The translations under genes and the position numbers were made by a program. From IMG/VR virus record IMGVR_UViG_3300006169_000036, positions 1 through 59,633 of that record: DNA of 59,633 nt, one strand, 5' to 3'. This document shows, one piece after another, positions 15,822 to 50,566 of this stretch (position 1 is the stretch's first letter; each line of letters starts with the position of its first letter). This DNA is from a virus. Its lineage: Duplodnaviria; Caudoviricetes. Under the pieces are notes generated by a model. It saw only the letters and a list, made by a program, of their open reading frames with translations. It did no database searches and had not been told where the DNA came from.

Positions 15822-18800
15822 ATGCCTGAAGGCGTGTACTCGGCTGGGACGATCTTCTTGCAGGTCGTGCCGTCCTACCGGGGCCTGCAGGAGTCCATCC
15901 GGCAGAAGGTCGGCGAGGTCGACAAGGCCCTGTCCGCCGACATGGAGGACAACGCCCAGAAGACCGGCCGGGCCGTCGGCCGGGTGCTGGGCGAGGAGAT
16001 CGCCAAGGGCGCCGAGCAGGGCGCGAAGAAGGCCTCCGACAAGTACGCCGGGGCTTTCCGCACCGGCATCCGCAACGCGGCCCGCGAGGCCCAGCGCGAA
16101 CTGGATGCCCTGAACTTCGACAACGCGTCGGAGAACACCCTCAACGAGGTCGAGCGGATCAAGCGCGCCGTCCGCAGCATCTCCAAGGAGTCCATGTCGC
16201 CGGAGTTCGACGGCGGCCGGGCCCTGCGCGACATCGACCAGATCCGGCAGCGCGTCCGCGACATCGGCAAGGAACGCCCCATCGACGAGGCGTTCAACCT
16301 GTCCCGCGTCGAGCGCACCCTGTCCGGCTTCTCCAAGGCCGTCGACCGCGAGATCTCCAAGGCCTTCGACTCGGTCGATGAGGGGGTCAAGCGCTCCGAG
16401 AAGGCCATGTCGAAGTTCGCGCGCGACTCCCGCAGCAAGGTCCGCGGGGCCATCAAGGATCTCGCCGGGGATGACGTCTTCCGCGACGTCACCGAACGGC
16501 TCGAGGGCCTGAAGGACATCAACCTCGACGTCGAGGTCGACTCCCAGGGCGCCCTGCGCGAGCTCGCCGCCATCGCCGCCGCTGCTCGAGCCATCGGGGC
16601 CTCCTCCCCCAGCATCCGCGTCCAGACCAATGCTGCCTCCGCGGCCAGCCAACTCGCCGCCGCGGGGGCCGCGGGGGCCGCCGCGTCCCGTGCCGGCAGC
16701 CAGGCCGACAGCGCCGCGAACTCGTTCCGCGCGTTCAACGGGGTCCTGCTGACCGCCACTTCCCTCGGCCCCGCCCTCGTCCCCGTCCTCGGGGCGGTCG
16801 CCGGTGGCATCGCCGCCGTCGGTGTCGCCTCCTCCGGCGCCGCCATGGGCCTCGGTGTCATGCTGCTGGGGTTCTCCGGCATCAGCGATGCCGTCACCGG
16901 CCTGATGGATGTCGAGAAGAACGCCGCCAAGGACGCCCTGCAGACCGCCAGCACCATGCGAACCGCGTTCCAGGCCGTCGCCGACGCGGAGCGGTCCCTC
17001 TCGCGGGCCCGGGTCGACGCGGCGCAGGCGAACGAGGATGCCGCCCGCAACACCCGCCGGGTGGTCAGGGACGCCGCTGAGGCCCAGCGCGACGCAGCCC
17101 AGGAGACCCGCGAGGCCGTCCAGGATGCCGCCCAGGCGAACCGCGAGGCTGCCCAGCAGATCCAGGACGCGCAGCGCCAGGCCGCGCAGGCCAACGAGGA
17201 CGCGGCCCGCCGTACGGCAGCCGCGCAGCGCGCCGCCTCCGAGGCCGTACGCGCCGCCCTGCAGCGCCAGGAGGACGCCGAGGACTCCCTGGCCGACGCC
17301 CAGCGCGACGCCCGGCAGGCCCAGGAAGACCTCCGCGAGGCCCGCCGCCTCGCGCAGCAGGATCTCGACGACATCCGCGACCGACAGCGCCAGAACGCGC
17401 TCGACGAGCGGCAGGCCGTCATCGACCTGTTCAACGCCACCGTCGCCGAGACTGCTATCCGGCAGGACCCCGGCTCCACGAACCTCGAGAAGGAACAGGC
17501 CGCGATCAACCTGGGCAACGCCCGGGAGCGGCTGCACGAGATCCGCGAGGAGGAGCGGGAGCTCGCCAGGCAGCGCCGTGAGGGCATCGAGGGCACCGAC
17601 CGGGTGCAGACCGCGCAGGACGCCCTCACGCAGGCCCTGGAGCGTCAGCGTGACGCGCAGGAGGCTCTGGGGGAGGCGGCCCGGGAGGTCGACCAGGCCC
17701 GACTGGAGGGCGCGCGAGCGGTCAGCGAGGCCATCCGCGACCAGAACCGCATCGCCCGCGAGGGTGCCCGGCAGATCGCGCAGGCAGAGCAGGACGCCGC
17801 ACGCACCCGGGCCGAGGGGATCGAGTCCGTCAGCGATGCCCGCCGCAACGAGGTGCAGGTCGCCCGCGACGGCGCTGAGGCCATCGCCGACGCCCGCCGC
17901 GCGCAGGCGCGCACCGAGGTCGACGGCGTCCAGTCCGTCCAGGACGCCCAGCGGGCCCTGCGCCGGGCTCAGCAGGACTACCAGGATGCGCTGAAGCAGA
18001 CCGGCGAGATCGGCAGCACATCCATGGCGAACCTCGAGAACGCCATGTCGAAGCTCTCCCCGGCCGGGCGCCGCTTCGCGCGGTACCTGTTCCACCTCCG
18101 GGGGCTGTTCTACCAGATCCGGGCCGCAGCGCAGGAGGGGATGCTGCCCGGCGTCCAGAACGCCATGCAACTGATCATCGGCCGCTATGGCAGGCCGTTC
18201 ACCCGCTTCGTCGGGCGCATGGCCGAGGTGGTCGGGGGCCTCTTCGAGAAGCTTGGCCGCCGGATGCTGCGGGGCTCGTTCGTCGACTTCTTCGGCATGC
18301 TCGAGCGGCTGGGTCCCCGCTTCCTGCGGCAGTTCGGCTGGGCGTTCATCAATTGGCTGGAGGCCTTCGCGGAGTGGGCCGTCATCATCGCGCCCTACTC
18401 CAAGCGCATGTCGGACAACCTGCTGGACCTGTCCCGCAACGCGCTCGCCTGGATCCAGTCCGCCCAGGGCACCGACTCCTGGCGTGGCTTCATGGACTAC
18501 GTCTACCGCATCGGGCCCGCGGTCGCCGACTTCTTCTGGGCCCTGTGGGAAGCCGTCAAGAACCTCGCGAAGGCTCTCGCCCCTCTGGGAGAACTGGTTC
18601 TCGTCGGGGTGACGAAGTTCCTGCGCTTCCTCGGCCGCATGGACCCCGACCACCTCCGGCTGATCGTCATCTCCATCCTGGGCCTCGTGTTCGCCCTGCA
18701 GGCCACATTCGCCATCACCAGCGGCGTCGTCAGCGTCATGACCGCGATCAGCCTCATCGGTGCCGTCGCGTTCGGCTGGGTCGCGGCGGCCATCTTCGTC

Positions 18801-39302: not shown

Positions 39303-39812
39303 TCACTGGGCCGTGAAGCCCGCCGCCACCGTGGTGTTGCCGGCAGGGTCGTTGACGACGACGGCCTTGGCGCCGCCGGTCGTCATGTTCGGCGTGGTGA
39401 CCCGGATCTCGTCGTCGGTGACGAGGGTGAAGGCCGTCCCGGCCACGCCGCCGAAGGTCACGCCGGTCGCGCCGGTGAAGTTGTCGCCCTTCAGGGTGAC
39501 CACCGTGCCGCCCGCGATGGGGCCGACGTTCGGGGAGATCGAGTAGACGCGCGGGGGCAGCGCGGCGGCGTCACCGGCGCCGTACTGGTATGCCGGGACC
39601 GACGTGTAGCCGGTCTTGCTCGCCGGGTCCTCGCGGTTCGCGGCCAGGGTGGGGTCCTGGGCCGGGGTGTAGGTCGCCGTAGGGCCGACGGCCACCTTCG
39701 GCTCGACGTGGGCGTAGCCGTTGTCGACCAGCCACTTCTCCTCGGCCGCGGACAGCGTCACGGTGCCGCCGGGGGCGACGCCGTACGCCGCGGATGTGAG
39801 CCTGACGGTCAC
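39303..39812 (-). CDS. IPT/TIG (Ig-like) domain protein
   Basis: P.V.SISP..GP.AGGT.VTL.G.NFTGAT.VTFGG...FT.V.D..I.V.TP; AGGAGG RBS before GTG 39812. Confidence 0.85.
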   Translation of the reverse strand: MTVRLTSAAYGVAPGGTVTLSAAEEKWLVDNGYAHVEPKVAVGPTATYTPAQDPTLAANREDPASKTGYTSVPAYQYGAGDAAALPPRVYSISPNVGPIAGGTVVTLKGDNFTGATGVTFGGVAGTAFTLVTDDEIRVTTPNMTTGGAKAVVVNDPAGNTTVAAGFTAQ

Positions 39813-39855
39813 GGGAAACCTCCTGGATCGGGTGGGTACTCCAGCCCAGGGTATC

Positions 39856-40158
39856 TCAGCGGGCGCCCGGATGCGCCTCGGGTGGGCGGTTACGCCCTCC
39901 CCTGCGCCTGGCCTTGCCCAGCGCGGCCTCCCGCGCCGTCTTCTGCTTGTGGTGGTGGGGGCACAGCAGCCACAGGTTGCCGAGGTCGTGGCTGTCGGGG
40001 TCCCAGCGGTGGTCGACGTCGGTTCCGCGGCGCGGGCAGCGCTTCCCGGAGCGCAGGATCCAGCGGCACCGGTTCCCGTCACGGCGCTTGACCTCGCGGA
40101 CCAGGGCCGACCAGTTGTCAGGGAGCCTGGCCCGGCGGTCAGAGGAGTCCCAGGGCAT
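39856..40158 (-). CDS. HNH endonuclease (packaging-associated type)
   Basis: V..RDG.RC...C....TDVDH...NL..LC..HH..KT..E. Confidence 0.88.
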   Translation of the reverse strand: MPWDSSDRRARLPDNWSALVREVKRRDGNRCRWILRSGKRCPRRGTDVDHRWDPDSHDLGNLWLLCPHHHKQKTAREAALGKARRRGGRNRPPEAHPGAR

Positions 40159-40661
40159 CAGCGCATGACCCGCCCACCATGGGCGAAGCCATACGCAGCG
40201 GAGTGCCGCCTCAGCGTTACGGGCGCCTGCGAGGCGGGCAGTTGGGCGTCACAGTCGAGGCAGAGGGCGGCGACGATGTCGCCGGTCAGGGCTTCCTCGA
40301 CTCCTACGCGGCGCTCATGGGAGCAGGCTGGGTCCCCGCCGCAACCGTGACGGCGCTTGTGCCAGGGGGTGAGCAGCCAGCCGAGGTAGCCGAGGCTGGC
40401 CAGCATGCCCAGGAGGGGGAACAGCAGGTCGCCCATCGTGATCCTTCGCTTGCGTAGTAGGTGCCACTCCTCGGCGAGGCTGCTCCAGATCATCAGCGGC
40501 CACCAAAGCGCGGTGACGAGGTTCAGCAGCATGAACCAGTCGGACCAGTCATCGACCGCCGACCCGTCCTTCCGGTTCTCGCGGCGCATCCAGCGCACGA
40601 AGAGGAAGTTGTTCAGCAGGCCGACCGCGAGGTACCCCACCCAGAGGGTGTCTTCGCTCAT
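40158..40661 (-). CDS. Membrane protein with C-terminal Cys/His motif
   Basis: Hydrophobic segments then C.HE...CLDC. Confidence 0.6.
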   Translation of the reverse strand: MSEDTLWVGYLAVGLLNNFLFVRWMRRENRKDGSAVDDWSDWFMLLNLVTALWWPLMIWSSLAEEWHLLRKRRITMGDLLFPLLGMLASLGYLGWLLTPWHKRRHGCGGDPACSHERRVGVEEALTGDIVAALCLDCDAQLPASQAPVTLRRHSAAYGFAHGGRVMR

Positions 40662-40686
40662 CGTGGTCCCTTCCTCGGTCGAAGTG

Positions 40687-40764
40687 TGGAGCCGGGGGGA
40701 GTCGAACCCCCGTCCGCCGTCGTTCCGCATGCGGTCCTACGACGTCGAATCACCGTGCAGCCCC
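40687..40764 (-). ncRNA. ssrA: Mini-tmRNA: tRNA-like domain only (78 nt)
   Basis: 5' GGGGCTG...TTCGAC, G3:U acceptor stem, helix 2a, GAC linker, T-arm GGGGG-TTCGACT-CCCCC, discriminator A. Confidence 0.88.
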
Positions 40765-40793
40765 TAGAGGAACCGGAGTGGACTGATGCTAGG

Positions 40794-40923
40794 TCAGACT
40801 TCGCGGCCCTGGGAGCAGCGTAGCGCAGCCTGGTGACAACACCAGTGCAACGCGCCGAGATGCATGCCACGCGTCCAGCCGCACCACTGGCAGACCGGCC
40901 CTGACGCGCGGCGCCACAGCATG
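40794..40923 (-). CDS. Possible ~42-aa Cys/His-rich peptide
   Basis: CQWC...H...HWCCH; coding status and coordinates uncertain. Confidence 0.3.
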
Positions 40924-40950
40924 TGCCAGTCGGCCCAGCCCGTCAGGGAC

Positions 40951-42120
40951 TTACCGCGGAACCAGGATCTCGAGGTCGCCATGACCGTACGGGTGCCCGT
41001 CATCCAGCCGCAGCGTCAGCGCACCCGGGCTCGAGTGCTCCCCGGTGCGGTCGGTGTAGTGCTTGCTGCCCGGGTCCATCGCCGGGGCCTGGTACAGGAA
41101 CCGCTGCCCCGCCTGGGTGGCGAGGAAGTGATGGAAGTGCCCGCTGATCAGGATCTTGCAGCCGCGGACCTCGCGGTACCCGAAGTCCTGGCCCTTGAAC
41201 CACTCCAGGGCCTTCGCCTGCACGGTCGGGCCCTTGCCGAACTTGTGCCCATGGGTGATGCCGACATCGACACCACCTAGCGTCAGGGCGACGGAAAGCT
41301 CGTCGTAGGGGATGACCCAGTCCAGGTCCCAGCCGCCGCGGTCGTAGGCCTCGCGAAGGGCCTCGAACACGGCGACATCGTCGTTGTCGGAGTCATCGGT
41401 GACCTGCTTGCCGTCGTTGCGGTGCTCCCCGTGGTTCCCCGCCACGGTGGCGACGGTGAACCGGTCGAACAGGGGCGCCAGGCTGTCGATGCCGTAGGAC
41501 AGAAGTTCGCGGGCCAGTTTGCACTGGTCGCGGCGGGTGCGGTCAGCGGTGAACGTCTGGGTGTTGTAGTTGCCGTGGCAACCCTCGATGATGTCCCCGA
41601 GGCCGAGGATCGCACCATGGGGCATCGACCGGCCGAGGCGCCGCAGAGACCTGACGCGATGCACGGCCTGGTCGAACGTGTCGGCCACTCGCTCCGCGGT
41701 CTGGTCGGTGCCGACGCTGCCTTCGCGCTTGCCCAGTTGCCAGTCCGCGGCCACGAACGCCCAGGCATCCTTGGCGGTGGCCTGGGCCAGGTTGCGGGGG
41801 CGGCGCTTGCGGATGCGGGCGATGAGCTCGTCGACATGCTCTGCTCGAGCGGCCGGGCCCTCGCCGGCAACGACGTTGAACTTGTAGTAGTACAGCCACT
41901 GGCCGTCGTAGCGCATCCACTTCCGGGTGTTCACCGGGCCCTGGATCTGCCACTCGTCCGGGTTGAACCCGGCGCCGATGAGCAGGTCATGCTCGGTGGC
42001 GTTCGGGCGGGGGAGGCGGACGATGGCCTCCCCGATCTGCTCGGTGTGCTCGGTGTAGGGCTCCCAGCCCTTCGGGACCGACGCGGCGGCGACCCTGTTG
42101 ACGTCGTCTTCGATGGTCAT
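40951..42120 (-). CDS. Calcineurin-like metallophosphoesterase
   Basis: ADWQ, GDIIE, GNHGE, THGH, GHFHH. Confidence 0.9.
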   Translation of the reverse strand: MTIEDDVNRVAAASVPKGWEPYTEHTEQIGEAIVRLPRPNATEHDLLIGAGFNPDEWQIQGPVNTRKWMRYDGQWLYYYKFNVVAGEGPAARAEHVDELIARIRKRRPRNLAQATAKDAWAFVAADWQLGKREGSVGTDQTAERVADTFDQAVHRVRSLRRLGRSMPHGAILGLGDIIEGCHGNYNTQTFTADRTRRDQCKLARELLSYGIDSLAPLFDRFTVATVAGNHGEHRNDGKQVTDDSDNDDVAVFEALREAYDRGGWDLDWVIPYDELSVALTLGGVDVGITHGHKFGKGPTVQAKALEWFKGQDFGYREVRGCKILISGHFHHFLATQAGQRFLYQAPAMDPGSKHYTDRTGEHSSPGALTLRLDDGHPYGHGDLEILVPR

Positions 42121-42644: not shown

Positions 42645-44975
42645 TCAGTTGGCTCCCGTGAAGAACGACGATGGCGTGGGCACCACCGGTTGCGATGTGT
42701 CGAGTGGCCGCAGGCCGACGTGCCCCCGCGAGGGCTGGTCGACATGCGTGTAGCCGAGGGCCTCGAGCCGGTGGCAGAACTCCTGCCTCTTGAGCTTGCC
42801 GAGGTTCTGCTGGTCGGCCCAGGCGGTGTAGGACCGGTACAGCGAGTGGCAGGTCTCGTGGTGCTCGGGCGCAGGCTGGACGCCATGCTTGACCCACTGG
42901 CGGGACTGGTCGATAGTCTCGGCGAACATGTCCCGGGCCCTGGCCGCGGCGCCCCGCGGGTCAAACTTGCCTCTCGTCATGAGGACGCGAAGTGCCTCGA
43001 CTCCCTTGCGCGCGATGCCGGGCAGTTCGTCAGACAGGCTGTCGGACAGGGAGCGGACGGGGTTGGCGAAGGTGCGGGTGAACTCCAGGATGACCCAGCG
43101 ACGCAGGTAGCCCTCGGACACGTCGGCCGATCCGGGGATCTTGTTCGCGCTGAACACGGGCACGGCCCAAGACTTGAAGGTGAACCTGTCACCGAACTTC
43201 TTCTCCGCGGCGTAGACATCCTCGCCGGTGAGCTTCTTGAAGTTCGCCGTGGACTCCTGGTAGGTGCCGTCGATGTCCCCGGCGATGTTGGCGATGCGTC
43301 CGAACAGGTTGACCGCGGAGAAGCGATGGGTGTTCAGGTCTTCGAGGGACTCCGAGGCGTAGTTCCCTTCGCCCAGCAGGTCACAAATGACGCGGATGAG
43401 GGTGCCCTTGCCGTTGCCGCCGGTGCCGTACAGCATGAACGCGACCTGCAGCGGGTTGCCGGAGTACATGAGGTAGCCGATCATCTCCCAGGCCAGGGGG
43501 ATGAAGTCCGGCTCGAGCACCTCGGCCAGCCAGGAGTCGAAGTGTTTGCACTCGGCGCCCGGGTCCCAGACCGTGCCCAGTTGCACGGTGGACTCGAAGT
43601 CCTCGGAGTGCTCGAGCAGTTCGCCGGTCTCCCATTCCAGCATGCCGTTGGCGAAGTTGATGTACCGGCCATCGGGGTCGTCATGGAGGTGGCGCACGTT
43701 GTGCTTCACCCAGACCTTCGCGTGGTCGCGGTGGGTGTTGCGGTACCGGTTGCCCATCAGGCTCAGGACGCGCTTCTCGACGACATCGGGGTCGGACTTC
43801 CAGACGCCGTTCTCGTAGCGCCAGAAGTCCCGGTTCACCCCGAAGGCCAGCGGCCCCTCGTCGACAACGGCCTGGCCGAGGACACCGACGAGGAAATCCT
43901 TGCCGTGGAAGAACCGCTCAGGTCCCGCAGCCGCAGTGCCGGCAGCGGGGGTGGCCGGGGCCCCGCTGCCCAACGTAGGGTCCGAGAGGCGCGGATCCTT
44001 CCGCACGGTGTCGGCCGTCATGAAGTCATCCGGCGGCCTGCCCTCGGGCATCGCCCGGGCCTTGTCGCCGACCTTCGTGACCGCGGACTGGAAGATCTTG
44101 TTGACCGTCTCGTCGTCGAACTCCGGGTCACGCGGGGCGTGGTCGAACAGATGCTGGTAGGCCCGCTGCTGCGTGTACCCGTTCCAGGGGCTGTTCGCCA
44201 ACTCCAGCAGCGCGCAGGCCACCTCGAACGTCGTGTTGTTCCAGGGCTCCCCGTTCCAGCCCAGCCGCGCGAGCTCCTGCAGGCGCTCCACGTTCGCGGT
44301 GATGGCCTTGCGGGCGTACTGGTCGAGGCGCTTGCGTTCGGACTCGGGGAGGTTGGACCGGTCGGGCACATCGGAGGACATCACGACGGGCCCGGCCGGG
44401 GCCTGCGGGCGCACCATCTCCAGCAGCCAGTCGGGCGCATGGTTCAGCGCCCGGTCGAAGGCCACATAGTCGCCCTTGTCGGTGCGTGAGGGCGGGGCGA
44501 CGACCTGACCACCGGTGCCGCGGATGTCGATGCCGGTGCCCTTGAACGCGGCCGGACTGTTCGTGACCTCGAAGCCGGTAGGCATCTCGAAGTAGAAGTG
44601 CCAGCCCCCGGACCCGGTGCGGACGGCATATGTCTCGGGCATCGGTCGCCCGGCCTTGATGCGCTGCCAGGACTCCAGGCCGCCCTTCTCCGGGTCGATG
44701 TCGAGGACCCAGAACCCCGACGGTGCGCCGGTGGCGATGCCGATGTTCGGTGGCCGGTCGGTACCGAACAGGGCCTCGATGTCGGCGCCGGACAGTTCGG
44801 GGGTGTTCTGCCACGCGGTGTCGAGGGGGTGCTTCCCCTTCGAGGCGCAGTTGCGGCCCTTCCGGCATGAGCAGGTCAGGCCATCGGGCCCGACCCGATG
44901 CAAGGGAATGACCCGCCATCCGCGGTTCCGGTAGAGATGTGCCGCCTGGTCTGCGCTAAGATCTGTGTTGCTCAA
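42645..44975 (-). CDS. Bifunctional primase-polymerase / SF3 (D5-like) helicase
   Basis: NIGIATG, VLDID, TGSGGWH, DIRG.GG.VVAPPS; Walker A GTGGNGKG. Confidence 0.95.
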   Translation of the reverse strand: MSNTDLSADQAAHLYRNRGWRVIPLHRVGPDGLTCSCRKGRNCASKGKHPLDTAWQNTPELSGADIEALFGTDRPPNIGIATGAPSGFWVLDIDPEKGGLESWQRIKAGRPMPETYAVRTGSGGWHFYFEMPTGFEVTNSPAAFKGTGIDIRGTGGQVVAPPSRTDKGDYVAFDRALNHAPDWLLEMVRPQAPAGPVVMSSDVPDRSNLPESERKRLDQYARKAITANVERLQELARLGWNGEPWNNTTFEVACALLELANSPWNGYTQQRAYQHLFDHAPRDPEFDDETVNKIFQSAVTKVGDKARAMPEGRPPDDFMTADTVRKDPRLSDPTLGSGAPATPAAGTAAAGPERFFHGKDFLVGVLGQAVVDEGPLAFGVNRDFWRYENGVWKSDPDVVEKRVLSLMGNRYRNTHRDHAKVWVKHNVRHLHDDPDGRYINFANGMLEWETGELLEHSEDFESTVQLGTVWDPGAECKHFDSWLAEVLEPDFIPLAWEMIGYLMYSGNPLQVAFMLYGTGGNGKGTLIRVICDLLGEGNYASESLEDLNTHRFSAVNLFGRIANIAGDIDGTYQESTANFKKLTGEDVYAAEKKFGDRFTFKSWAVPVFSANKIPGSADVSEGYLRRWVILEFTRTFANPVRSLSDSLSDELPGIARKGVEALRVLMTRGKFDPRGAAARARDMFAETIDQSRQWVKHGVQPAPEHHETCHSLYRSYTAWADQQNLGKLKRQEFCHRLEALGYTHVDQPSRGHVGLRPLDTSQPVVPTPSSFFTGAN

Positions 44976-49288: not shown

Positions 49289-50566
49289 TCACTGCGCCAC
49301 CTCCCGGGCGTAGTTGGTACGGTCATGCCAGGTCAGCGCCAGCAGCGGCCTGGTGACCGCTGCGGCCATGTCCGGCGGGACGGCGTTCCCAGCCTGCTGG
49401 TGCTGGGCCGACACGGGCCCCTGCCACGGGTAGTCGGCGGGGAACGACTGCAGGATCCCGGCCTCCTGGACGGTCACGCGGACGGAGCCGGGGGTCTTCT
49501 GCCGGGGCGGGTCGCCGGGCTTGCGGTAGCCCGGGGCCGCGACGACATCGGGCCGGAACGACCCGACGATGGTCGGGCTGGGCCGCTCATGCGCCCAGGA
49601 CGTGTCGCCCTCGACCTCGGCGACCGGCGACCACTGCGCCGACCGGGCCCCGGTGATCGTGTGCGCGGGCTCGGTGGCCGCGTCACGCGGGCGCTGCCGG
49701 ATCCGGTCCTGCGAGGTCTGACCGGCCCCGGAGAACAGCCAGCGACCCTCGTCCATCTCGCGGTACATCGCCTGCCGGGCACCGTTGCCGAACGGCTCCG
49801 CGCCGCCTGTCGCCGTCCCGCCACCGCACACGGTGTGGGAGGGGCGCGCGGTCATGCCGCGGTTGATGCCCTCGGCCATCGTCACCCAGCGCTTCACGCC
49901 GGGGTCCAGGCGGGACGGGTTGTGCGGGTAGTACCGGGAGTGCGTCGCGTGCGGCGAAAGCTCCTCCTCCTGCACGCGGGCGGACTCGACCTCGCCCGCG
50001 ACGTTGAGGACGGCGACCAGGCCGACACGGTGCCGTGCCTGCGGGACCCCGTACTGCTCGGAGTGCAGGTCATGCACGACGACGGTGTAGCCCCAGCGCC
50101 GCATGACGGTCGCGTAGGCCTCCCACACGGGGCGGACGGCCTTGACCTGCTCCAGCGCCACGAACAGCGGGCGCTCGTCGCGGATCACGGTCAGCGGGTG
50201 CAGGGCGAGCACCGTACGCTCGTCGAGGGCGTCGTCCTCGGCCCACTCGACGGCCACGGCGGGGTTGTCGCCGTTGGCGACGCGGCCGACGGCGGTGACC
50301 AGGCTGTCGACATGCGGCAGGCCCTTGCGGGCCCCGCCCTGGGAGAACGTCTGGCACGGGGGCCCGGCGGTGTAGCCCAGCAGGTTGCCCGTGTGGGCCC
50401 AGCCTACGCGGCGCACGTCGCCCTCGATGACCTCGAAGCCAGCGGCGCGGGCGGTGGCGGCGGCATGCTTGTTCTGCTCGACGCAGACGATGCGGCCGGT
50501 GTACCCGGCACGGCGCAGGCCCAGGGCCATGCCACCGGCCCCGGCGAAGTCACAGCGGATGGTCAT
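49289..50566 (-). CDS. C5 cytosine DNA methyltransferase
   Basis: FAGAGG (I), GPPCQTFS (IV), EQV (VI), Q.R.R (VIII), LQSFP (IX), GNAVPP (X). Confidence 0.93.
   Translation of the reverse strand: MTIRCDFAGAGGMALGLRRAGYTGRIVCVEQNKHAAATARAAGFEVIEGDVRRVGWAHTGNLLGYTAGPPCQTFSQGGARKGLPHVDSLVTAVGRVANGDNPAVAVEWAEDDALDERTVLALHPLTVIRDERPLFVALEQVKAVRPVWEAYATVMRRWGYTVVVHDLHSEQYGVPQARHRVGLVAVLNVAGEVESARVQEEELSPHATHSRYYPHNPSRLDPGVKRWVTMAEGINRGMTARPSHTVCGGGTATGGAEPFGNGARQAMYREMDEGRWLFSGAGQTSQDRIRQRPRDAATEPAHTITGARSAQWSPVAEVEGDTSWAHERPSPTIVGSFRPDVVAAPGYRKPGDPPRQKTPGSVRVTVQEAGILQSFPADYPWQGPVSAQHQQAGNAVPPDMAAAVTRPLLALTWHDRTNYAREVAQ

What the first reader, a model, noticed from the sequence alone, without database searches (positions are those of the whole stretch)
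40687..40764. Phage-encoded mini-tmRNA with no mRNA-like domain: possible decoy of host trans-translation
Seen: the - strand reads GGGGCTG-CACGGTGATTCGA-CGTCGT-AGGACCGCATGCGGAACG-ACGGCG-GAC-GGGGG-TTCGACT-CCCCC-CGGCTCC-A. It has a 7-bp acceptor stem with G3:U and discriminator A, a stemless D-loop ending TTCGAC, a 6-bp helix 2a, a 3-nt GAC linker and a canonical T-arm. CCA is not encoded. Established: G3:U is the AlaRS identity element, and the other features define the SmpB-binding tRNA-like domain of tmRNA. The roughly 250+ nt of pseudoknots and tag ORF are replaced here by an 18-nt capped hairpin. No integrase was recognised and both halves are intact and compensatory, so this is not simply an attP remnant. 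Inference: it either titrates SmpB/EF-Tu to block ssrA tagging and proteolysis of phage proteins, or rescues stalled ribosomes without tagging, for example against RNA-cleaving defences. I recall TLD-only RNAs in jakobid mitochondria and one mycobacteriophage (DS6A), so it may be rare rather than unprecedented; that recollection needs checking.
Basis: partly seen in the sequence, partly recalled or inferred. Interest (0 to 1): 0.92.

Follow-up and report, generated by a model that had tools for sequence, protein, structure and literature searches.

The report
Phage mini-tmRNA without tag message
This phage carries a tRNA-sized gene that keeps only the alanine-accepting, SmpB-binding end of the bacterial ribosome-rescue RNA (tmRNA), a form known from one mycobacteriophage that turns out to be common but unannotated in phage genomes.

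Summary
Window 40687-40764 (- strand) is a 78-nt tmRNA tRNA-like domain (TLD): a 7-bp acceptor stem with G3:U, a stemless D-loop, helix 2a, a GAC linker, a T-arm and discriminator A. An 18-nt capped hairpin replaces the pseudoknots and tag frame. Rfam tmRNA scores it 55.3 bits (cut-off 47), with 306 model positions replaced by 12 nt.

It is not unprecedented. Mycobacteriophage DS6A's "TLD only" tmRNA is in print (Hudson et al. 2014), and a similar molecule was reported to inhibit tmRNA in E. coli (Mao et al. 2009, as cited).

It is not rare either. Capped scans of viral contigs plus a covariance model gave 166 copies (132 distinct).
- G3:U holds in 131/132 and discriminator A in 132/132.
- About 96-97% of cells pair, with strong covariation.
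- Unannotated copies sit in cultured Streptomyces phages (Shaeky, Alone3, BRock and others).
- ARAGORN detects 0/109.

Of 50 carrier contigs, none encodes SmpB or a full-length tmRNA, and 6 have a tyrosine integrase.

Best reading: a charged, host-SmpB-dependent competitor of host tmRNA that uncouples ribosome rescue from proteolytic tagging. Expression, charging and binding are untested.

Verdict: a real gene and a new member of a known kind. The family's breadth appears undescribed.

The parts
40687..40764 (-). TLD-only (CDS-less) tmRNA gene, 78 nt up to the discriminator A
   Evidence: Sequence. Rfam RF00023 55.3 bits, over its cut-off. Family model R1 66.7 bits.
40758..40764 (-). Acceptor stem, 5' strand (GGGGCUG), with G3 of the G3:U pair
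   Evidence: In the family, G1:C, G2:C and G3:U hold in 132/132, 132/132 and 131/132.
40745..40757 (-). Stemless D-loop (CACGGUGAUUCGA) ending in the tmRNA-typical UUCGA(C) motif
   Evidence: NNNCGAC motifs end the D-loop in most of the 132 family members (TTTCGAC 77, GTTCGAC 10, TATCGAC 9, ATTCGAC 7).
40739..40744 (-). Helix 2a, 5' strand (CGUCGU)
   Evidence: MFE structure. Family helix 2a pairs in 591/654 cells against 285 +/- 13 shuffled. All 8 model pairs show changes on both sides.
40721..40738 (-). 18-nt cap that replaces the pseudoknots and tag frame: A-rich internal loop plus a 3-bp stem CCG/CGG with a CAUG loop
   Evidence: CCGCAYGCGG is shared with DS6A, Shaeky and Alone3. Other members carry compensated stems with GNRA or CUUG-type loops.
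40715..40720 (-). Helix 2a, 3' strand (ACGGCG)
40712..40714 (-). GAC linker between helix 2a and the T-arm
   Evidence: The G+GAC linker is GGAC in 105/132 members and GCAC in 7, as in DS6A.
40695..40711 (-). T-arm (GGGGG-UUCGACU-CCCCC)
   Evidence: 4 of 5 T-stem pairs covary in the family.
40687..40694 (-). Acceptor stem 3' strand (CGGCUCC, with U70) and discriminator A (40687)
   Evidence: Discriminator A in 132/132 members.
40684..40686 (-). 3' trailer CAC: CCA is not encoded and would have to be added after trimming
   Evidence: CCA is encoded in only 23/109 family members, and C follows the discriminator in 106/109.
40951..42120 (-). Upstream neighbour, co-oriented: exonuclease (PHROG 284). 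A 186-nt spacer separates it from the RNA gene.
   Evidence: phrog_284 E 5.5e-47. The same family lies upstream of 4/99 other copies.
40158..40661 (-). Downstream neighbour, co-oriented: 167-aa ORF of no known family. Its ATG lies 25 nt after the discriminator, behind a GAGGAAGGGA Shine-Dalgarno-like run.
   Evidence: No Pfam or PHROG match. No promoter or terminator consensus in 40100-41100, so co-transcription and processing are inferred.

Best explanation
The element is a functional gene for a tRNA-sized 'TLD-only' tmRNA.

Proposed mechanism:
1. It is transcribed with its co-oriented neighbours. The host tRNA-processing machinery then cuts it out (RNase P at the 5' end, 3' trimming and CCA addition).
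2. Host AlaRS charges it with alanine through the G3:U pair.
3. Host SmpB binds it through the D-loop, T-loop elbow and helix 2a.
4. As Ala-TLD/SmpB/EF-Tu it competes with the host's full-length tmRNA for SmpB and for stalled, non-stop ribosomes.
5. Because it has no resume codon or tag frame, the nascent chains it receives get one alanine and not a degradation tag.

In infected cells, trans-translation tagging and the proteolysis that follows would therefore be blocked or bypassed.

Shown here: the anatomy, family-wide purifying selection and covariation, the near-invariance of the AlaRS identity set, and the absence of phage SmpB and of any full-length phage tmRNA.
Taken from the literature: a similar TLD-only RNA inhibits tmRNA in E. 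coli.
Inferred only: transcription and processing, charging, SmpB binding, ribosome entry, and the benefit to the phage.
Left open: whether the ribosome is then released (tag-free rescue) or stays blocked.
For: 1. Identity. Rfam tmRNA matches end to end over its cut-off. There is no tRNA or other Rfam family, and no permuted-tmRNA hit.

2. Homology with the published DS6A form.
- The DS6A copy, at JN698994 28478-28560, shares the architecture and the CCGCAYGCGG cap.
- It scores 59.3 bits with the family model; the window copy scores 66.7.

3. Selection on the structure.
- The family has 166 members, 132 distinct, in the 200 sources searched.
- 97.3% and 96.0% of cells pair. The covariation score is 0.637 and 0.644, against 0.138 and 0.133 shuffled and at most 0.10 slid; 0/500 shuffles reach it.
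- An alignment-free count gives helix 2a paired in 591/654 cells against 285 +/- 13.

4. Selection for charging.
- G1:C72 132/132, G2:C71 132/132, G3:U70 131/132 and discriminator A 132/132, while stem positions 4-6 vary freely with compensation.
- Neither the scan patterns nor the regex constrained position 3 to G:U.

5. Size is tightly held at tRNA scale: 77-81 nt in 121/132.

6. Dependence on the host. SmpB is absent from this genome and from 0/50 carrier contigs. None of the 50 carries a full-length tmRNA.

7. tRNA-like gene behaviour. 26/109 copies lie within 500 nt of tRNA genes, 25 of them on the same strand. Shaeky's and Alone3's copies sit inside tRNA arrays.

8. Virus enrichment. 113/118 pattern hits in viral contigs have the mini architecture, against 8/120 in bacterial genomes.

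9. Literature (passages read).
Against: - No expression, charging or binding data exist for this copy or for any copy examined here.
- No sigma-70-like promoter or intrinsic terminator was found near it.
- The fold energy is not better than shuffles (z -0.54).
- The cited E. coli result says inhibition did not need charging. A passive SmpB sponge would therefore suffice for inhibition, and the role I give to alanylation rests only on conservation of G3:U.
- Mao et al. 2009 itself could not be read. I rely on two citing papers.
- Flanking genes are heterogeneous and give no functional hint.
One scan required the cap motif, so cap-motif frequencies are biased.
- Many copies are related, so the shuffle controls overstate independence. 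The slid controls do not share that flaw.
Confidence: 0.55

Rival explanations
1. Passive SmpB sponge. The RNA only sequesters host SmpB, and perhaps AlaRS or EF-Tu, away from tmRNA. Charging and ribosome entry are irrelevant to its function.
For: [quoted passage not shown] The SmpB-facing parts (D-loop motif, GGAC linker, helix 2a) are conserved. No phage SmpB is present.
Against: G3:U is kept in 131/132 distinct copies, although G:C or A:U would stabilise the stem and neighbouring pairs change freely. G1:C, G2:C and discriminator A are invariant. This is the AlaRS identity set (established knowledge), and a pure SmpB sponge has no need for it. Size is held at 77-81 nt.
Confidence: 0.2
2. Tag-free ribosome rescue is the selected function, not inhibition. 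The RNA mainly recycles ribosomes stalled on cleaved or non-stop mRNAs during infection (as proposed for the CDS-less mitochondrial tmRNAs), for example when host RNases or anticodon nucleases act.
For: The AlaRS identity set is conserved. The RNA lies near phage tRNA arrays in 26/109 copies. [quoted passage not shown]
Against: With no tag frame there is no stop codon, so release would need a further factor (peptidyl-tRNA drop-off and hydrolase, or an Arf-type factor). None was looked for or found here. The only experimental report cited is of inhibition. No RtcB was found in this genome, and no link to a defence system was shown.
Confidence: 0.15
3. A non-functional relic: a decayed full-length phage tmRNA, an attP or imprecise-excision fragment of host ssrA, or an assembly collapse.
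For: Phages do pick up ssrA fragments, and many integrate into ssrA (PMC9004378 and PMC10865867 passages). Two carrier contigs have a tyrosine integrase within about 1.5 kb of the RNA. No transcript evidence exists.
Against: Both halves are intact. 132 distinct copies keep the same length and pairs, with compensatory change. This genome has no integrase, 44/50 carriers have no tyrosine integrase, and DS6A integrates at tRNA-Lys. The form also occurs in finished genomes of cultured phages from independent projects, so it is not an assembly artefact.
Confidence: 0.04
4. A cis-acting tRNA-like element, or an ordinary tRNA. It would serve as an RNase P/Z processing signal that punctuates the polycistronic transcript ahead of the 167-aa ORF, or as a variant tRNA-Ala.
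For: The RNA ends 25 nt before a co-oriented ORF with a Shine-Dalgarno-like run. No promoter or terminator of its own was found. About three quarters of neighbours are co-oriented.
Against: There is no anticodon arm, and ARAGORN calls no tRNA. Rfam's clan competition keeps tmRNA over tRNA. The tmRNA-specific D-loop and GGAC motifs and G3:U are conserved irrespective of neighbours, which differ widely. A mere processing signal needs none of them.
Confidence: 0.06

Closest known systems
TLD-only tmRNA of Mycobacterium phage DS6A (tmRNA Website tmID 11587; 'Phage__Mycobacterium.9'). Sources: Hudson, Lau & Williams 2014, PMC4131195; Mao et al. 2009 as cited there; PMC11915505.
   Same: Phage-borne and about 80 nt. 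It has an acceptor stem with G3:U, a stemless D-loop, helix 2a, a T-arm and discriminator A, and no tag frame or pseudoknots. The central CCGCAYGCGG cap is shared. Both copies are hit by the same family model (59.3 and 66.7 bits). CCA is not encoded in either.
   Different: - The host phage is a different, unrelated-looking actinophage. This one has no integrase, and its TerL is at most 45% identical to any named phage. DS6A is temperate.
- Genome position differs: exonuclease / small ORF here, between gp33 and gp34 in DS6A.
- The linker is GGAC here and GCAC in DS6A.
- The D-loop motif is UUCGAC here and GUCGAC in DS6A.
Canonical bacterial tmRNA (SsrA; Rfam RF00023)
   Same: The whole tRNA-like domain: the AlaRS identity set, the D-loop/T-loop elbow, the base of helix 2a and the GGAC linker. 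It passes the Rfam gathering score.
   Different: It lacks all of the mRNA-like domain: the resume codon, tag reading frame, stop codon and pseudoknots PK1-PK4 (306 model positions replaced by 12 nt). It therefore cannot tag proteins or supply a stop codon.
CDS-less organellar tmRNAs: jakobid and other mitochondrial tmRNAs (Jacob et al. 2004, title seen in the reference list of PMC11915505; Rfam RF02544) and the ~65-bp plastid forms of Mallomonadaceae (PMC11915505)
   Same: tmRNA reduced to little more than the TLD, with no tag frame. They are presumed to act with SmpB.
   Different: Those are the organelle's only tmRNA, are usually circularly permuted genes, and work with a dedicated imported SmpB. 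The phage RNA enters a cell that already has a full-length tmRNA and must compete with it. RF02544 gave no match in the window at gathering level.
Full-length phage-encoded tmRNAs (for example Streptomyces phage Comrade and relatives, mycobacteriophage Bxz1-type; 402 of 18,146 phages by ARAGORN in PMC9004378)
   Same: Phage-borne, and often beside phage tRNA genes (Comrade).
   Different: They keep a tag frame (tags annotated; Comrade's gene is 278 nt). ARAGORN finds them. None of the 50 mini-carrying contigs has one.
Laboratory TLD constructs used for SmpB co-crystals (Gutmann et al. 2003, title seen in the reference list of PMC8012679)
   Same: The same minimal design: acceptor, T-arm, D-loop and helix 2a closed by a short loop (comparison from my own knowledge of those constructs, not tested here).
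   Different: Those are engineered truncations. This is a natural gene under selection.

Membership tests
tmRNA tRNA-like domain (RF00023 ends) | 7-bp acceptor stem with G3:U70 and discriminator A73 (AlaRS identity) | tested here: met
   Sequence. Family: G3:U 131/132, A73 132/132.
tmRNA tRNA-like domain (RF00023 ends) | Stemless D-loop with the UUCGAC motif, GGAC linker and canonical T-arm | tested here: met
   Rfam alignment. Motif tallies.
tmRNA tRNA-like domain (RF00023 ends) | Helix 2a closing the TLD, supported by covariation | tested here: met
   591/654 cells paired against 285 shuffled. 8/8 pairs change on both sides.
tmRNA tRNA-like domain (RF00023 ends) | Score at or above the Rfam gathering threshold | tested here: met
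   55.3 bits against 47. 47/50 other carriers are also over the cut-off.
Complete, tagging-competent tmRNA | Resume codon, tag reading frame ending in a stop codon | tested here: not met
   Only 18 nt lie between the helix 2a strands. ARAGORN finds no tmRNA or tag.
Complete, tagging-competent tmRNA | Pseudoknots PK1-PK4 and helix 5 | tested here: not met
   306 model positions are absent.
DS6A-type TLD-only phage tmRNA | About 80-nt one-piece TLD with a capped helix 2, encoded by a phage, homologous to the DS6A copy | tested here: met
   Alignment with DS6A, including the shared cap. The common covariance model hits both.
DS6A-type TLD-only phage tmRNA | Inhibits host trans-translation when expressed | not testable with these tools
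   Known only from citing passages about Mao et al. 2009. That paper is not held.
Any functional tmRNA | Alanylation by AlaRS, and binding of SmpB and EF-Tu | not testable with these tools
   Inferred from the conserved identity elements only.
Two-piece (permuted) tmRNA | Acceptor and coding pieces from a circularly permuted gene | tested here: not met
   No permuted-tmRNA Rfam family matches at gathering level. Both acceptor strands and both helix 2a strands lie in one 78-nt piece.
Ordinary tRNA (RF00005) | Cloverleaf with D-stem and anticodon arm | tested here: not met
   ARAGORN finds 0 genes in the window. Rfam keeps tmRNA in the clan competition.
attP / ssrA integration fragment | Adjacent integrase, and only the 3' part of the target gene | tested here: not met
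   No PF00589 or PF07508 match in the genome. The 5' and 3' halves are both present.

The most novel reading that the evidence does not exclude
The window's RNA would be one member of a large, so far unannotated family of tRNA-sized alanyl-accepting 'mini-tmRNAs'. The family is spread through mostly non-temperate phages of many bacterial phyla (locus G+C from 33 to 71%; copies on contigs assigned to actinobacteria, cyanobacteria and Butyrivibrio).

These RNAs would be charged by host AlaRS and loaded by host SmpB. They would enter stalled ribosomes and end nascent chains with a single alanine and no degron. That would be a general phage strategy to switch off proteolytic tagging while keeping, or hijacking, ribosome rescue, possibly as a counter to host defences that cut mRNAs or tRNAs.

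The breadth and conservation are shown here. The mechanism and its role in infection are not.
Probability: 0.35. Interest if true: 0.8.

Novelty: new member of a known kind. Interest (0 to 1): 0.6.

Why it matters
Trans-translation is nearly universal in bacteria and is a drug target. How phages deal with it is little studied.

A single TLD-only tmRNA (DS6A) has stood in the literature since 2009 as a curiosity. This window shows a second, unrelated actinophage with the same gene. Following it up shows that the form is common in viral sequence data, is under strong selection for its structure and its alanine identity, and is missed by the standard annotator (ARAGORN 0/109; no tmRNA feature under any of the named-phage copies examined).

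Copies in cultured, non-pathogen systems (Streptomyces phages Shaeky, Alone3, BRock, LuckySocke, GiJojo, pSt2308) make one question directly testable: do phages block, bypass or exploit ribosome rescue? The result also argues for a dedicated Rfam or annotation model.

Tried and rejected
Thermodynamic support. RNAfold gives the expected structure, but z = -0.54 against shuffles, so it carries no weight.

Promoter and terminator scan of 40100-41100: nothing found on either strand. The scan covers sigma-70-type consensus only.

Expression and assembly check.
- The look-up of sequencing runs listed no RNA holder and one weak DNA holder (share 0.07).
- Laying that run gave only short pieces of relatives, and none spanned the stretch.
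- This says nothing about expression or assembly.

Relatives of this phage. The search for related loci with the neighbouring exonuclease found no locus. Blastn of 2.5 kb around the element hit only an HNH gene of Microbacterium phage Zeta1847. I therefore could not test whether close relatives keep the RNA at the same site.

MAFFT alignment of 105 copies (A2) slid the 5' acceptor strands, so I did not use it for pair counts. I used anchor-indexed counts and model-based alignments. The model-based alignments lean towards the model's structure; the anchor-indexed count does not.

Origin of the cap.
- I considered that CCGCAYGCGG might be what is left after a deletion between the two strands of helix 2 of a full-length tmRNA.
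- Bacterial ssrA 3' regions carry a conserved GCAYG-containing motif.
- Streptomyces phage Comrade's full-length tmRNA has no such motif.
- The idea stays untested.

Breadth among cultured phages. Blastn with a cyanophage-like copy and an AT-rich copy found no full-length match in the named-phage collection. A 78-nt blastn is insensitive, so this is no evidence of absence.

Functional hints from neighbours. PHROG scans of 100 downstream and 99 upstream ORFs (crude longest-ORF calls) gave no common partner.

RtcB and SmpB in the window genome: none.

Rows dropped.
- A2 and the 102 references left out 7 of the 109 strict copies: 6 shorter than 74 nt or longer than 81 nt, plus L001, which duplicates the window.
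- The 50 carrier contigs were chosen from the 107 available. 30 were picked for contig length of about 28 kb or more; the other 20 were of length unknown to me.
- The member counts exclude 7 low-scoring hits (31.4 bits or less).

Literature. Searches for a description of widespread CDS-less phage tmRNAs returned only the DS6A reports. The library is open-access only. The supplementary tables of PMC11915505 (its 9 'Standard, no CDS' and 79 phage sequences) were not seen and may already list some Streptomyces-phage copies. Mao et al. 2009 is not held.

Full report
WHAT IS THERE

The window is a complete virus record of 59,633 bp with direct terminal repeats and about 69% G+C. Structural genes lie on the + strand in the left half. 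Replication and early-type genes lie on the - strand in the right half.

- GGGGCUG (acceptor 5' strand).
- A 13-nt stemless D-loop ending UUCGA.
- Helix 2a, CGUCGU/ACGGCG.
- An 18-nt cap (AGGA-CCG-CAUG-CGG-AACG).
- The GAC linker.
- The T-arm GGGGG-UUCGACU-CCCCC.
- CGGCUCC (acceptor 3' strand).
- Discriminator A.

The next three bases are CAC, so CCA is not encoded.

Rfam's tmRNA model (RF00023) aligns both ends in one global hit. It scores 55.3 bits against a gathering score of 47 (E 4.9e-19), and 306 internal model positions are replaced by 12 nt. It is the only Rfam family that reaches its threshold anywhere in the window and the only tmRNA match in the genome. ARAGORN reports no tRNA and no tmRNA.

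RNAfold's minimum-energy structure is the proposed one. Its energy is ordinary for this base composition (z -0.54), so I give it no weight.

CONTEXT

The RNA is co-oriented with its neighbours.
- Upstream, across a 186-nt spacer, is an exonuclease (PHROG 284, E 5.5e-47). Beyond that is a Prim-Pol/D5 primase.
- Downstream, 25 nt after the discriminator, a 167-aa ORF of no known family starts behind a Shine-Dalgarno-like run.
- No sigma-70-type promoter or intrinsic terminator was found within 40100-41100.

The genome has no tyrosine-integrase domain, serine-recombinase domain, SmpB or RtcB. Its large terminase is at most 44.6% identical to that of any named phage, and all the best hits are actinophages. 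The host is therefore probably an actinobacterium, and the phage has no close cultured relative.

PRECEDENT

Hudson, Lau and Williams 2014 list 'Mycobacterium phage DS6A (TLD only)'. [quoted passage not shown]

The 2025 tmRNA database paper (PMC11915505, passages):
- counts 9 unique 'Standard, no CDS' sequences among 97,179;
- mentions two ~65-bp plastid forms and the CDS-less mitochondrial tmRNAs;

I located the DS6A copy at JN698994 28478-28560, between gp33 and gp34 (43.2 bits). DS6A's attP overlaps tRNA-Lys-CTT, not ssrA (PMC10865867, Table 2 passage).

Aligned with the window copy, DS6A shares the TLD and also the central CCGCAYGCGG cap. That points to common descent and not to independent deletions.

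A FAMILY, NOT A ONE-OFF

Finding copies:
- A pattern for the mini architecture found two IMG/VR contigs.
- Blastn found unannotated full-length copies in Streptomyces phages Shaeky (inside a tRNA array, between tRNA-Phe and tRNA-Leu) and Alone3 (also in a tRNA array).
- Later blastn found copies in LuckySocke, GiJojo (under a 'hypothetical protein' CDS), pSt2308 and BRock.

A strict regular expression (acceptor 7/7 and T-stem 5/5 paired; position 3 free to be G:C, G:U or A:U) extracted 109 distinct copies, most of 78-79 nt. All 109 had G3:U.

Virus enrichment. In viral contigs, 113 of 118 hits to the second pattern have this architecture. In one-genome-per-species bacterial and archaeal contigs, only 8 of 120 do. 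Most of the rest are 3' ends of full-length ssrA, where a UUCGAC happens to lie upstream of the T-arm, and the remainder are tRNAs or other matches. One of the 8 is a Prochlorococcus single-cell contig identical to an IMG/VR record.

Covariance model. Model R1 was built from 16 gap-free 78-nt seeds.
- It found 166 members at 46 bits or more in the 200 sources searched. Unrelated tRNA-like noise scored 31.4 bits or less.
- The window scores 66.7 bits, DS6A 59.3, Shaeky 86.3 and Alone3 68.3.
- The members comprise 132 distinct sequences, and 121 of them are 77-81 nt.

SELECTION

On the two model-based alignments:
- 97.3% and 96.0% of cells form standard pairs (shuffled: 70.9% and 68.4%; slid by 1-3 columns: 35-51%).
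- 17 and 20 of the 23 pairs show changes on both sides.
- The covariation score is 0.637 and 0.644, against 0.138 and 0.133 shuffled and at most 0.10 slid.
- 0 of 500 shuffles reach the observed score.

Such alignments lean towards the model. I therefore also counted helix 2a without any alignment, indexing from the invariant CGAC and GGAC anchors. 591 of 654 cells pair, against 285 +/- 13 with shuffled partners (maximum 327 in 1000 shuffles), and all Watson-Crick types occur at each position.

The cap is a 3-bp stem with a stable tetraloop. It is CAYG in the commonest form. Other members have GNRA or CUUG-type loops with compensated stems. The frequency of the CCGCAYGCGG form (77/132) is inflated, because one scan required it.

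THE MOST INFORMATIVE CONSERVATION

Acceptor positions 4-6 change freely, with compensation. In contrast, G1:C72 and G2:C71 are 132/132, G3:U70 is 131/132 and the discriminator A is 132/132. Nothing in the scans or filters forced the wobble. A wobble kept where a Watson-Crick pair would be more stable is the signature of selection for AlaRS recognition (G3:U as the alanine identity element is established knowledge).

C follows the discriminator in 106/109 copies, and CCA is encoded in 23/109.

CARRIERS

I examined 50 carrier contigs: 30 chosen for length of about 28 kb or more and 20 of unknown length, out of 107 available. By CheckV's estimate, 17 are at least 90% complete.
- 49 have an RF00023 hit, 47 of them over Rfam's cut-off. 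Every hit spans 70-92 nt, and none of the 50 has a full-length tmRNA.
- None encodes SmpB.
- 6 of 50 (2 of the 17 near-complete) have a tyrosine integrase.

Other context figures:
- Locus G+C ranges from 0.33 to 0.71.
- 26 of 109 copies lie within 500 nt of a tRNA gene, 25 of them on the same strand.
- Protein neighbours differ by lineage. Downstream: DnaB-type helicase in 10/100 and major head protein in 9/100. Upstream: head protease in 6/99, replication initiator in 6/99, and the window's exonuclease family in 4/99. About three quarters of neighbours are co-oriented.

The RNA thus behaves as a self-contained module, inserted into expressed operons or tRNA arrays.

ARAGORN in tmRNA mode detects 0 of 109. 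That explains why the copies in GenBank phage records carry no tmRNA feature.

HOW IT PROBABLY WORKS

Shown here: a tRNA-sized RNA gene under purifying selection for the TLD fold, for the SmpB-facing motifs and for the alanine identity set. It occurs in phages that bring neither SmpB nor a tagging-competent tmRNA.

Reported by others: such a molecule inhibits tmRNA in E. coli.

Inferred: it is processed like a tRNA, charged by host AlaRS, bound by host SmpB and delivered by EF-Tu to non-stop ribosomes, in competition with host tmRNA. With no resume codon it can donate only its alanine, so tagging and the proteolysis that follows are prevented.

Whether the ribosome is then freed (tag-free rescue, as suggested for CDS-less mitochondrial tmRNAs in PMC11915505) or left blocked cannot be told from sequence.

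A purely passive SmpB sponge is the main rival. It fits the cited observation that charging was dispensable for inhibition in E. coli. It does not explain why the wobble pair and the rest of the identity set are kept in 131-132 of 132 natural copies, or why length is held at tRNA scale.

The covariation, the finished genomes of cultured phages and the general lack of integrases contradict the relic, attP and assembly-artefact readings. The absence of an anticodon arm contradicts an ordinary tRNA. The conservation of tmRNA-specific and AlaRS-specific features irrespective of neighbours contradicts a mere processing signal.

NOVELTY AND VERDICT

The window's element is a genuine new member of a known but barely documented kind, the DS6A-type TLD-only phage tmRNA.

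What I did not find in print is the breadth of the family, its conserved cap, the near-invariance of the alanine identity set, and its presence in tractable Streptomyces phages. They cover the open-access library only, supplements were closed, and Mao et al. 2009 was not readable.

I score interest at 0.6. The kind is not categorically new. It is nonetheless a clean, testable lead into how phages handle ribosome rescue, and it exposes an annotation gap.

Noticed in passing
L002 5916-6012 (-), IMG/VR contig IMGVR_UViG_3300025131_000728: A Pistol ribozyme match over Rfam's cut-off (50.7 bits against 34.5), about 2.2 kb from that contig's mini-tmRNA.
   Followed up: no
L005 1839-1964 (+), Streptomyces phage Alone3 OR725492 (about 18022-18147): An unannotated 126-nt tRNA-model match (37.5 bits) directly upstream of the mini-tmRNA. 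It may be a tRNA with a long insertion or intron.
   Followed up: no
PP725410 (Streptomyces phage GiJojo) 17025-17102: The mini-tmRNA copy lies under an annotated 'hypothetical protein' CDS (gene 44). That CDS call is probably spurious.
   Followed up: no
L223-L342 (bacterial genome contigs): Full-length bacterial ssrA genes often carry an internal UUCGAC followed by a conserved CUA(C/A)GCAYGUAGA-like stretch 40-60 nt before the T-arm. Simple TLD patterns therefore give false 'mini' hits in bacteria (112 of 120). Any relation of this motif to the mini's CCGCAYGCGG cap is untested.
   Followed up: partly
G034 (locus L116) and G014 (locus L086), IMG/VR contigs: In two carriers a tyrosine integrase lies within about 0.6-1.5 kb of the mini-tmRNA. 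An attP-related role or origin in these lineages was not examined.
   Followed up: no
L154 11908-12002, L160 11235-11329, L215 11594-11684; L201 1914-1980, L205 5575-5641: Size variants of the family: 91-95-nt copies with an extended helix 2, and 67-nt copies in which helix 2 is closed directly by a loop.
   Followed up: no
L045 898-976 (-): The single family member with A3:U70 in place of G3:U70. It also has a CGAT D-loop motif and an AGAA-type linker, so it may be a decaying copy.
   Followed up: no
window 49289-50566 (-), 42645-44975 (-), 39303-40082 (-): Other genes near the element: a C-5 cytosine DNA methyltransferase, a Prim-Pol/D5-type primase-helicase, and a 259-aa protein with a C-terminal IPT/TIG domain lying among early-type genes.
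   Followed up: no
L003 (IMGVR_UViG_3300045744_000007, 97 kb): A very large tRNA array surrounds the mini-tmRNA (24 ARAGORN tRNAs in 6.3 kb). It includes sub-threshold tRNA-Sec-like and YrlA-like matches.
   Followed up: no
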